Of a DNA stretch of 31,860 bases, positions 23,393 through 23,474 are shown one piece after another (the stretch's first letter is position 1; each line of letters opens with the position of its first letter). The stretch lies in IMG/VR virus record IMGVR_UViG_2778261226_000007. The stretch is one strand, 5' to 3'. The stretch is from a virus (lineage: Duplodnaviria; Heunggongvirae; Uroviricota; Caudoviricetes). The notes under the pieces were generated by a model, which did not search any database, was not told the DNA's origin, and was given only the letters and a program-made list of their open reading frames with translations. The translations under genes were made by a program, and so were the position numbers.

Positions 23393-23414
23393 AAAAAACC
23401 GCATGAGCGCGGTT
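23393..23414 (-). terminator. Hairpin plus T6 between b1 and the c4-like core, module B
   Basis: Minus strand: AACCGC, loop GCTCAT, GCGGTT, followed by TTTT. Confidence 0.6.
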
Positions 23415-23474
23415 GTGCTCTATATTGAATTTCGGGTTTCCACGCCCGGCCCCCGCTTTATAAGGTGCAGAGAC

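What the first reader, a model, noticed from the sequence alone, without database searches (positions are those of the whole stretch)
23393..23468. Each module should also release a ~75-nt RNA (5' hairpin, a1, b1, terminator): a candidate target mimic
Consider the inferred starts about 7 nt after each -10 and the hairpin plus T-tract after b1. On that basis all three modules predict a discrete short transcript of similar size (about 74-76 nt by my count). It starts with a stable hairpin and carries exact copies of the boxes that the core recognises at the RBS. Such an RNA could titrate the a'/b' loops and open the downstream RBS, acting as a sponge or anti-antisense. This gives a three-RNA logic of mimic, antisense and target. 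As I recall, the Salmonella Gifsy-1 IsrK locus works this way: a short terminated RNA activates translation of the long read-through mRNA encoding an antirepressor. In P1, the a1/b1 boxes are part of the c4 precursor.
Basis: inference. Interest (0 to 1): 0.65.

Follow-up and report, generated by a model that had tools for sequence, protein, structure and literature searches.

The report
Three IsrK/C4 prophage immunity RNA modules
The predicted ~75-nt RNA is real at the sequence level, but it is an ordinary member of the known IsrK/seqA family, which sits upstream of C4/CI antisense RNAs in phages P1 and P4 and prophage Gifsy-1; this E. coli prophage carries three copies with different pairing boxes.

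Summary
On the minus strand, Rfam places isrK (RF01394) at 23392-23468, 24045-24121 and 18068-18142. Each copy is followed by a C4 antisense RNA (RF01695) and then a Rha or ORF6N antirepressor-type gene. Each short unit has a promoter-like site, two hairpins, an a1 box in the second loop, a single-stranded b1 box and an intrinsic terminator.

In 56 box types from viral contigs, a1/b1 covary with the C4 a'/b' loops and with a2/b2 at the downstream ribosome site. The terminator is present in 132 of 132 unique modules.

Citron and Schuster proposed a1/b1 competition for P1 in 1990. Trans-activation by short IsrK was shown for Gifsy-1 in 2016, and the mutated bases there map exactly onto a1 and a'. 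The IsrK-C4-P4 (seqA-CI) link was published in 2013.

A pure sponge model conflicts with some Gifsy-1 data, and P4 treats the same element as a cis target for termination. The module holding the finding (module 2) and the one at 24045-24121 (module 1) also lie inside long "Ash-Rha" reading frames with an internal promoter, as in P4 eta/kil.

Verdict: new members of a known kind, of modest interest.

The parts
23475..23503 (-). M2 promoter-like site: -35 TTGATT (23503-23498), 17-nt spacer, -10 TACACT (23480-23475). It lies inside the long Ash-Rha reading frame.
   Evidence: Read. At 8 of 12 consensus positions it was not reported by the scan. A -35/-10 pair sits at this position in all 56 box types.
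23392..23468 (-). M2 IsrK-family short RNA (the finding): hairpin 1 at 23468-23449, hairpin 2 at 23448-23433, linker, terminator.
   Evidence: Rfam RF01394, 57.7 bits, E 4.7e-10; fold.
23437..23443 (-). M2 a1 box, GUGGAAA, in the loop of hairpin 2.
   Evidence: 7-bp helix with a'; covaries with a'.
23417..23429 (-). M2 b1 box, UUCAAUAUAGAGC, in the single-stranded linker.
   Evidence: 12-bp helix with the b' loop, including 2 G-U pairs. Accessibility-corrected energy -13.8 kcal/mol.
23393..23414 (-). M2 intrinsic terminator: AACCGC/GCGGUU stem plus a U6 run.
   Evidence: -8.4 kcal/mol. A hairpin plus T-run occupies this position in 132 of 132 unique related modules.
23280..23367 (-). M2 C4/CI-type antisense RNA core: b' loop at 23326-23315, a' at 23310-23302, conserved AUGG at 23363.
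   Evidence: Rfam RF01695, 82.4 bits; fold z-score -5.2.
23231..23274 (-). M2 target region: a2 (GUGGAAA, 23273-23267) and b2 (UCAACAUAGGG, 23242-23232), which overlaps the Shine-Dalgarno sequence of the internal start codon at 23222-23220.
22671..23519 (-). M2 long Ash-Rha reading frame. Its ATG at 23519 overlaps the stop codon of the M1 gene (ATGA). The nested short Rha frame starts at 23222.
   Evidence: Pfam PF10554 plus PF09669; PGAP calls the same 849-nt gene in the closest relative; frame analysis.
24045..24156 (-). M1 promoter-like site (24156-24128) and IsrK-family RNA (24121-24045). a1 AUUGGCGUC at 24097-24089, b1 UGCAUACGGC at 24081-24072, terminator at 24064-24045.
   Evidence: Rfam 61.2 bits.
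23876..24020 (-). M1 C4 core (24020-23933; b' 23979-23968, a' 23963-23955), a2 (23928-23922), b2 plus Shine-Dalgarno (23898-23887) and start codon (23878-23876) of a small Rha-like gene that runs to 23516.
   Evidence: Rfam 80.7 bits.
18068..18178 (-). M3 promoter (TTGACC-18-TATATT, 18178-18149), directly after the Q antiterminator gene, and IsrK-family RNA (18142-18068). a1 at 18118-18110, b1 UGAAAAAGGC at 18104-18095, terminator at 18088-18068.
   Evidence: Rfam isrK 79.4 bits and c4-a1b1 52.2 bits; promoter and terminator.
17421..18045 (-). M3 C4 core (18045-17960; b' 18004-17995, a' 17990-17982), a2 (17955-17949), b2 plus Shine-Dalgarno (17925-17917) and an ORF6N (AnrP-like) gene at 17909-17421.
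   Evidence: Rfam 74.0 bits; Pfam ORF6N.

Best explanation
Each of the three loci is a P1 immI / P4 immunity / Gifsy-1 isrK-type RNA control cassette.

How it is built:
- A promoter drives a 75-77-nt IsrK/seqA-family RNA. It carries a1 in a hairpin loop and b1 in a single-stranded linker, and it ends at a moderate intrinsic terminator.
- Only transcripts that read through that terminator, or that arrive from upstream, contain the C4/CI core. Its a' and b' segments can pair either with a1/b1 or with a2/b2.
- b2 overlaps the Shine-Dalgarno sequence of a Rha or ORF6N antirepressor-type gene.

How it most likely works:
- Pairing by the C4 core keeps the downstream gene silent.
- The free short RNA competes for a'/b'. 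It competes both with the target site and with its own copy inside the read-through RNA.
- When the short RNA is in excess, the cargo gene is switched on.
- Different box sequences make the three cassettes largely independent of one another.

Status of each step:
- Shown here: the anatomy, the family membership, three-way covariation of the boxes, and universal conservation of the terminator.
- Shown by others in Gifsy-1: the 77-nt RNA exists, and it activates in trans through a1:a' pairing.
- Inferred: that these E. coli copies are expressed and behave the same way, and whether the form of C4 that is bound is the processed RNA or the core still embedded in the mRNA.

In M1 and M2 the cassette is also embedded in a long Ash-Rha reading frame with an internal promoter, as in P4 eta/kil. 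Translation from upstream transcripts probably overrides the RNA control during lytic growth (inferred).
For: - Rfam isrK and C4 matches above threshold for all three modules. The same two models hit Gifsy-1, and both reach their gathering scores on P4 (isrK 60.8, C4 74.9 bits). P1 has C4 (68.8 bits) and c4-a1b1 (51.0) above their gathering scores, and isrK at 35 bits, below threshold.
- Related modules from viral contigs gave 209 C4 matches, 132 unique modules and 56 a'/b' combinations (15 a', 44 b').
- Box positions relative to the C4 core are fixed: a1 near -81, b1 near -65, T-run near -35, a2 near +6, b2 near +34 to +41.
- Cognate duplex energies beat non-cognate ones for all four box pairs.
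- The summed a1+b1 helix length is 839 for cognate pairs against 607 +/- 11 in permutations; 0 of 10000 permutations reached it.
- On a gapless 21-sequence alignment, 90.7% of cells pair (62.9% in shuffles). Covariation is 0.735 against 0.205 +/- 0.023 (0 of 500), and 0.04-0.13 in slid controls. 14 of 19 pairs change on both sides.
- A terminator hairpin plus a T5-8 run is present in 132 of 132 modules. A promoter-like -35/-10 sits 6-8 nt before hairpin 1 in all types.
- Within the window, accessibility-corrected IsrK-by-C4 energies are -13.1, -17.7 and -10.9 kcal/mol for cognate pairs, and -8.6 to +3.4 for non-cognate pairs.
- Gifsy-1 numbering maps exactly: G28/G31 lie in a1, C162/C159 in a', and A107 is the A of the conserved AUGG at the start of the C4 core (with Table 1).
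- In Gifsy-1, short IsrK in trans raises anrP translation 139-fold, and the G28A and G31A versions are inactive.
- Northern blots there show the 77-nt IsrK and an ~80-nt processed species.
Against: - There are no expression data for this prophage.
- The M1 and M2 promoters match only 8 of 12 consensus positions.
- The IsrK folds of M2 and M1 are no more stable than shuffled sequence.
- In Gifsy-1, a1 mutations in cis raise rather than lower basal expression. Constitutive STnc1160 did not prevent IsrK toxicity. The authors place the effect on an upstream ORF start rather than on the anrP ribosome site.
- At native levels the Gifsy-1 system is off even though IsrK is made, so the short RNA is at best a weak competitor.
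- In P4 the homologous seqA is needed for immunity, not against it.
- The predicted accessibility of the M2 target was unfavourable in the fragment tested.
Confidence: 0.6

Rival explanations
1. P4-type reading. a1/b1 (seqA in P4) is mainly a cis target. C4/CI pairs with it on the nascent or read-through transcript, and this locks an inactive fold or enforces early termination. The short RNA is then the product of that regulated termination, not a regulator. Any decoy effect appears only on artificial overexpression.
For: - Rfam isrK scores 60.8 bits on the P4 seqA region and C4 scores 74.9 bits on P4 CI.
- IsrK-like elements are required in P4-like prophages of S. Typhi (PMC3632133).
- Gifsy-1 a1 mutations in cis derepress 23-55-fold, and 'structure A' (a1 paired with a' in cis) is the silent form.
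- The minimum-energy fold of the M3 read-through RNA is this cis a1b1:a'b' duplex.
- M1 and M2 share the P4 eta/kil layout of nested frames with an internal promoter.
Against: - Short IsrK in trans clearly activates in Gifsy-1, and this needs a1.
- The effect there is mostly translational: 139-fold, against 8-fold on transcription.
- This reading is compatible with the best explanation rather than exclusive of it.
Confidence: 0.25
2. a1/b1 serve C4 biogenesis. Transient cis pairing guides the folding, processing or stability of the C4 core. The terminator simply limits read-through, and the released short RNA has no function.
For: - C4 can only be made by read-through, because no promoter fits in the 24-26-nt spacer.
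- A ~180-nt isrK-orf45' processing intermediate is seen in Gifsy-1.
- Covariation proves pairing but does not show whether it acts in cis or in trans.
Against: - Trans-activation by IsrK in Gifsy-1.
- A promoter and terminator at fixed distances, conserved in 132 of 132 modules, suggest the discrete unit itself is selected.
Confidence: 0.1
3. The stretch is only protein-coding sequence, the 'Ash' domain of a Rha-family protein. The RNA-like features are incidental.
For: - Pfam PF10554 matches the translation, and PGAP annotates 'ash family protein' or 'Rha family' across it.
- In 24 Rha-cargo box types, the frame of the C4 AUG has 0 stop codons in 2328 codon positions, against 77 and 125 in the other two frames. 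It is also in frame with Rha.
Against: - The covariance-model scores are strong and the stems and boxes show compensatory changes.
- An intrinsic terminator and a promoter lie inside the frame in every copy.
- 22 of 56 box types have no open frame across the module, and variation shows no clear codon periodicity.
- M3 and Gifsy-1 keep the RNAs without an in-frame fusion.
- In P4 the same region is known to encode the CI RNA inside eta. Coding and RNA function therefore coexist.
Confidence: 0.03

Closest known systems
IsrK / STnc1160 ('orf45') / AnrP locus of Salmonella prophage Gifsy-1 (Rfam RF01394; Hershko-Shalev et al. 2016, PMC4825925)
   Same: - The same covariance-model family and the same order: promoter, 77-nt terminated RNA, C4-type core, ORF6N antirepressor.
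- M3 even has the same position directly after the Q gene, and the same a box (UUGGCGU/ACGCCAA).
- Short RNA and read-through isoforms come from one promoter.
   Different: - M1 and M2 sit in the early operon between cro and the replication genes. They carry Rha cargo and are embedded in long in-frame Ash-Rha ORFs.
- The b boxes differ.
- The orf45-anrP stop/start overlap (AUGA) is not conserved here. In M3 the frame stops 27 nt upstream of the start codon; in M1 and M2 it is fused in frame.
- The M3 cargo gene is annotated as truncated in the closest relative.
Phage P1/P7 immI operon: a1 b1 - c4 - a2 b2 - icd - ant (Rfam RF01695, RF03163; Citron and Schuster 1990)
   Same: - A C4 core with a'/b' complementary to both an upstream and a downstream box pair.
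- b2 lies at the ribosome site.
- Box differences give heteroimmunity.
- The idea that a1/b1 compete with a2/b2 comes from this system.
   Different: - There is no icd-like coupling gene here; the cargo is Rha or ORF6N rather than Ant1/2.
- The P1 annotation treats a1/b1 only as part of the c4-icd-ant mRNA. The sequence nevertheless shows a terminator-like hairpin plus U-run after b1.
Satellite phage P4 immunity: seqA - CI RNA - seqC inside the nested kil/eta genes (Sabbattini 1995 and Forti 1999, as summarised in PMC10111431 and PMC3632133)
   Same: - Rfam isrK and C4 hit P4 seqA and CI above threshold.
- The promoter is internal to a long Bro-network ORF that carries the Pfam Ash region.
- There are nested long and short frames.
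[quoted passage not shown]
   Different: - In P4 the documented outcome of CI pairing is premature termination and immunity of a satellite, not translational activation by the short RNA.
- Here the host element is a lambdoid prophage with a protein repressor, and it carries three cassettes.
Prophage anti-sRNAs and sponges such as AgvB and AsxR of EHEC (Tree et al. 2014, cited in PMC12197685)
   Same: This is a resemblance in how it works only: a short phage RNA mimics the target of a regulatory RNA and relieves repression.
   Different: - They are unrelated in sequence and structure.
- They target host Hfq-dependent sRNAs, whereas IsrK acts Hfq-independently on its own locus.

Membership tests
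Rfam isrK (RF01394) | Covariance-model score at or above the gathering score (50 bits) over the full 77-position model | tested here: met
   57.7, 61.2 and 79.4 bits, model positions 1-77 of 77, for 23392-23468, 24045-24121 and 18068-18142.
Rfam isrK (RF01394) | Two 5' hairpins, a single-stranded linker and a Rho-independent terminator | tested here: met
   Folds. Terminators. Hairpin 1 shows compensatory changes and hairpin 2 is conserved.
Rfam isrK (RF01394) | A discrete ~77-nt RNA species made from its own promoter | not testable with these tools
   Only promoter-like hexamers ending 6 nt upstream. Northern evidence exists for Gifsy-1 only.
Rfam isrK (RF01394) | Trans-activation of the downstream antirepressor gene by the short form | not testable with these tools
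   Shown for Gifsy-1; no data for this prophage.
P1-type c4 antisense system (RF01695 / RF03163) | A C4 core fold: long closing stem, two inner hairpins, single-stranded a' segment | tested here: met
   82.4, 80.7 and 74.0 bits; fold z-scores -5.2, -3.9 and -4.4.
P1-type c4 antisense system (RF01695 / RF03163) | a'/b' complementary to a1/b1 upstream and a2/b2 downstream, with b2 at the ribosome binding site | tested here: met
   b2 runs into GGAGG, GGGG or AAGGA 5-10 nt before the ATG.
P1-type c4 antisense system (RF01695 / RF03163) | c4-a1b1 covariance model at or above its gathering score (46.7 bits) | tested here: inconclusive
   Met for M3 (52.2 bits). Not reported at gathering threshold for M1 and M2, where isrK is the match.
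P1-type c4 antisense system (RF01695 / RF03163) | An icd-like leader gene translationally coupled to ant | tested here: not met
   The cargo start codon follows b2 directly. There is no separate leader gene between b2 and the cargo.
P4 immunity (seqA-CI-seqC within nested kil/eta) | A promoter, a seqA-like element and a CI-like element embedded in a long ORF, with a nested shorter frame | tested here: met
   - M1: long frame 24175-23516 with the short frame starting at 23878.
- M2: long frame 23519-22671 with the short frame starting at 23222.
- The frame is open in 24 of 24 Rha-cargo types.
- Not met for M3.
P4 immunity (seqA-CI-seqC within nested kil/eta) | CI-dependent premature transcription termination | not testable with these tools
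   Needs in vivo or in vitro transcription assays.

The most novel reading that the evidence does not exclude
The a and b boxes form a combinatorial RNA address code. A small sample held 15 a' and 44 b' variants in 56 combinations, including hybrids such as an a box of M1 with a b box of M2 in the closest relative. Under this reading, short IsrK-type RNAs released by one prophage or satellite could cross-activate or cross-immunise cassettes with matching boxes in co-resident elements. That would give E. coli prophage communities an RNA-based network which coordinates or blocks antirepressor expression.
Probability: 0.3. Interest if true: 0.6.

Novelty: new member of a known kind. Interest (0 to 1): 0.3.

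Why it matters
These cassettes gate antirepressor-type genes, so they bear on how lambdoid prophages decide to induce; close relatives of M3 are found in Stx-converting phages. Related modules occur in 2336 of 5426 complete E. coli genomes at blastn sensitivity.

In genome annotation they are hidden under 'ash family protein' or 'Rha family' coding sequences.

One prophage carrying three cassettes with different box pairs is a natural test bed. It could show how specific two-box RNA recognition is. It could also show whether the short RNA acts as a decoy (the Gifsy-1 view) or as a cis termination target (the P4 view).

The basic biology is already described, so the value is incremental.

Tried and rejected
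- **Whole-sequence duplex prediction.** Predictions between IsrK, C4 and target did not discriminate cognate from non-cognate pairs, because the shared stems dominate. I replaced them with loop-restricted and accessibility-corrected calculations.
- **Searching collections with the pseudo-protein translation of the module.** This gave only 2 genome loci and 80 near-identical viral loci. A degenerate C4 DNA pattern gave the diverse set instead.
- **First regular expression.** It had an off-by-one error and found nothing; fixed.
- **Pfam PF10554 (Ash).** I first read it as a pure translation artefact of the RNA. I softened this after finding that the Rha-cargo modules keep the frame open and in frame, and that P4 eta is a genuine ORF containing the CI RNA.
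- **M2 C4-target energies.** They came out positive in the fragment chosen. I treat that as inconclusive, not as evidence against pairing.
- **MAFFT/RNAalifold.** It did not recover the terminator hairpin, because the stems are too variable. Direct per-sequence folding did.
- **Primary P4 papers.** PMC94026 and PMC176756 are not held, so P4 statements rest on secondary summaries.
- **Expression evidence in E. coli.** Literature searches found no transcript evidence for IsrK-like RNAs in E. coli.

Full report
**What is at the coordinates**

The feature lies on the minus strand. I call the three modules M1 (IsrK at 24045-24121), M2 (23392-23468, the finding) and M3 (18068-18142).

- A scan of the whole window against Rfam gave seven matches above gathering score, arranged as three modules.
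- The isrK family (RF01394) matches at 24045-24121, 23392-23468 and 18068-18142 with 61.2, 57.7 and 79.4 bits.
- Each copy is followed 24-26 nt downstream by a C4 antisense RNA (RF01695) at 23933-24020, 23280-23367 and 17960-18045 (80.7, 82.4 and 74.0 bits).
- M3 also matches c4-a1b1 (RF03163).
- Each short RNA ends in a hairpin plus U-run that the terminator scan reports. The hairpin energies are -7.7, -8.4 and -9.3 kcal/mol.
- Each is preceded by a -10 hexamer ending 6 nt before its first base. Only the M3 promoter (10 of 12) passes the scan threshold. M1 and M2 have TTGATT-17-TACACT (8 of 12).
- The C4 cores fold far better than shuffled sequence (z-scores -3.9 to -5.2). The short RNAs do not (z-scores +0.28, -0.91 and -2.14).

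**Context**

- The window is the early and late-regulatory region of an E. coli lambdoid prophage. The best match is NZ_OU342919 at 97.5% identity.
- Read along the minus strand, the gene order is: cro-like gene, ORF6N-KilAC antirepressor, Lar, M1 (small Rha-like gene), M2 (Rha gene), replication genes, RusA, Q antiterminator, M3 (ORF6N gene), then the lysis genes. A divergently transcribed cI-like repressor gene lies just before the cro-like gene.
- M3 therefore has the same position as isrK in Gifsy-1, directly after Q.

**The boxes**

- In each module the C4 single-stranded segment a' and the hairpin loop b' are complementary to a1 and b1 of the short RNA. a1 sits in the loop of hairpin 2 and b1 in the linker.
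- They are also complementary to a2 and b2 downstream, where b2 runs into the Shine-Dalgarno sequence.
- Dinucleotide shuffles of each partner sequence reached both helix lengths in the right order 0-13 times in 5000.
- The box cores are exact copies in M1 and M3. In M2, b1 and b2 differ at two positions, and both versions keep pairing through G-U.
- M1 and M3 share the a box but differ in b. M2 differs in both.
- Accessibility-corrected energies for short RNA against C4 are -13.1, -17.7 and -10.9 kcal/mol for cognate pairs, and -8.6 to +3.4 for non-cognate pairs.

**Comparative test**

- A degenerate pattern for the enterobacterial C4 core pulled 120 stretches from viral contigs.
- With the loci already held, this gave 209 cores, 132 unique modules and 56 a'/b' combinations (15 a', 44 b').
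- In nearly all of them a1 lies about 81 nt before the core, b1 about 65 nt before, and a T-run about 35 nt before. a2 lies about 6 nt after the core and b2 34-41 nt after. The box sequences change together.
- Cognate duplex energies are better than non-cognate ones for all four box pairs.
- The summed a1+b1 helix length is 839 for cognate pairs against 607 +/- 11 after permuting partners; 0 of 10000 permutations reached it.
- On a gapless alignment of 21 types with the geometry of M1 and M2, the named pairs a1:a' and b1:b' are formed in 90.7% of cells, against 62.9% in shuffles.
- The covariation score there is 0.735, against 0.205 +/- 0.023 in shuffles (0 of 500) and 0.04-0.13 when the partner is slid. 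14 of 19 pairs change on both sides.
- All 132 unique modules have a hairpin plus a run of 5-8 T between b1 and the core.
- All 56 types have a -35/-10 pair 6-8 nt before hairpin 1, although the promoter sequences themselves differ.
- Hairpin 1 shows compensatory changes.
- The discrete unit of promoter, two hairpins, a1, b1 and terminator is therefore conserved as such, and its pairing with the core is under selection.

**What is already known**

- *P1.* The P1 record annotates a1, b1, C4, a2 and b2, with a2/b2 as the sites of translational repression of icd-ant. The supplement of Weinberg et al. 2010 records that Citron and Schuster (1990) proposed that a1/b1 compete with a2/b2 for c4 and so allow ant expression.
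- *Gifsy-1.* Hershko-Shalev et al. 2016 showed the following:
  - A 77-nt IsrK ends at its terminator, and some transcripts read through into isrK-orf45-anrP.
  - That mRNA is translationally silent.
  - IsrK in trans raises anrP translation 139-fold.
  - IsrK G28A and G31A are inactive.
  - An ~80-nt species (STnc1160) is processed from the read-through RNA.
- *Mapping Gifsy-1 onto the C4 framework.* Rfam places isrK at 34316-34240 and C4 at 34214-34131 of the Gifsy-1 record. The paper's numbering then maps exactly:
  - G28 and G31 lie in a1 (UUGGCGU, 26-32).
  - C162 and C159 lie in a' (ACGCCAA, 158-164).
  - A107 is the A of the conserved AUGG at the start of the C4 core.
  - G114-C175 and C116-G173 are pairs of the C4 closing stem.
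  - So 'orf45'/STnc1160 is the C4 core, and the paper's 'structure B' is the native IsrK fold plus the native C4 fold.
- *P4.* Barquist et al. 2013 already called IsrK and C4 the structural homologues of P4 seqA and CI, and noted similar systems in lambdoid prophages, P1, P7 and N15. I confirmed that both Rfam models hit P4 above threshold, with isrK at 60.8 bits and C4 at 74.9 bits.
- *P1 again.* P1 also has a terminator-like hairpin plus AUUUUU after b1, and a sub-threshold isrK match of 35 bits.

**Mechanism**

- The specific sponge version, in which free C4 is titrated off the a2/b2 site, is not established. Three Gifsy-1 results argue against it:
  - a1 mutations in cis raise basal expression 23-55-fold.
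  - Constitutive STnc1160 did not prevent IsrK toxicity.
  - The authors place the effect on remodelling of the unprocessed RNA and on an upstream start codon.
- In P4 the seqA-CI interaction causes early termination.
- One reading fits all of these. Repression needs the core to pair with sites in cis: a1/b1 of the same transcript, and a2/b2. The free short RNA competes with those sites.
- Minimum-energy folds of the three read-through RNAs in the window show all three states: a cis a1b1:a'b' duplex in M3, native folds in M2, and a cis a'b':a2b2 duplex in M1. This is only suggestive.
- The orf45-anrP stop/start overlap is not conserved. In M3 the frame from the core's AUG stops 27 nt before the start codon. 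In M1 and M2 it is fused in frame.

**Overlap with coding sequence**

- Pfam PF10554 (Phage_ASH) matches the translation of the IsrK-C4-a2b2 stretch in all three modules, including an out-of-frame ORF in M3. PGAP calls 'ash family protein' or 'Rha family' genes across them.
- In P4 the same Pfam model hits the obsolete 'cI protein' ORF over the CI RNA.
- Across the 56 types, 22 have no open frame over the module, and variation has no clear codon periodicity.
- But in the 24 Rha-cargo types the frame of the core's AUG has no stop codon in 2328 codon positions, against 77 and 125 in the other two frames. It extends upstream of the promoter and is in frame with Rha. Many of the stops in the other frames come from conserved motifs, so this comparison overstates the number of independent events.
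- The long M2 frame starts at an ATG (23519) that overlaps the stop of the M1 gene (ATGA) and follows a GGGAGG.
- This is the P4 eta/kil arrangement: a constitutive promoter, seqA and CI inside a long ORF that is coupled to the upstream gene, plus a nested short form.
- M1 and M2 are therefore best described as dual-use sequence.

**Verdict**

The three loci are new members of a known family, in a setting of three cassettes with different boxes, two of them eta-like, that is useful but not surprising.

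Noticed in passing
window 23858-24133, 23190-23480, 17903-18154 (minus strand); L206 8329-8521: Pfam PF10554 (Phage_ASH) and PGAP 'ash family protein' correspond to the translation of the IsrK-C4-a2b2 RNA module. In P4 the model hits the obsolete 'cI protein' ORF over the CI RNA, not epsilon, which is PF25738. 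One published satellite-detection scheme used PF10554 as the profile for epsilon.
   Followed up: yes
window 22671-23519 and 23516-24175 (minus strand): In Rha-cargo modules a long frame runs from upstream of the internal promoter through IsrK and C4, in frame into Rha. It has no stop codon in 24 box types. In M2 its ATG overlaps the upstream gene's stop (ATGA at 23519-23516). This looks like the nested eta/kil genes of P4 and suggests two protein isoforms.
   Followed up: partly
L001 (NZ_OU342919, closest relative); L117 9712-11104: The closest relative carries a fourth module that combines the a box of M1 with the b box of M2. One viral contig has three tandem modules spaced 656 nt apart. 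The a and b boxes seem to be reshuffled between cassettes.
   Followed up: partly
window 18068-18183 (minus strand): The M3 promoter starts 5 nt after the Q antiterminator gene, and the lysis genes lie downstream. That is where a lambdoid late promoter and its short terminated RNA (lambda 6S, StxS) would be. Sy et al. 2020 describe IsrK as coming from an antitermination-regulated promoter. Whether Q acts on this terminator was not examined.
   Followed up: no
window 23900-23945, 23240-23290, 17935-17975 (minus strand): A conserved GGUGGUG lies 20-25 nt after each C4 core and is complementary to the CACCACC of the core's 3' arm. It could form an alternative hairpin that competes with the closing stem. 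In M1 and M3, a2 itself sits in a small hairpin loop (GAAA-UUGGCG-UUUC, CUGA-UUGGCG-UCAG), much as a1 does.
   Followed up: partly
related modules, table: b1 copies the 5' part of b2, but it is followed by GCG or GCGCA where b2 continues into GGAGG, GAGG or AAGG. So the upstream copy lacks the Shine-Dalgarno part. Cognate b1 helices are on average shorter than b2 helices (8.2 against 9.3 bp).
   Followed up: partly
L204 (phage P1) 331-412: P1 has a hairpin (ACCGCAG...UUGCGGU) followed by AUUUUU between b1 and c4, and a sub-threshold isrK match of 35 bits. A short a1-b1 RNA may therefore be released in P1 too. The record annotates a1/b1 only as part of the c4-icd-ant mRNA.
   Followed up: partly
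window 17421-17909 (minus strand): The M3 cargo gene (ORF6N, 162 aa) is annotated in the closest relative as a pseudogene missing its C-terminus, so this cassette may guard a truncated antirepressor. A helix-turn-helix regulator gene (16454-17257) lies between it and the holin genes.
   Followed up: no
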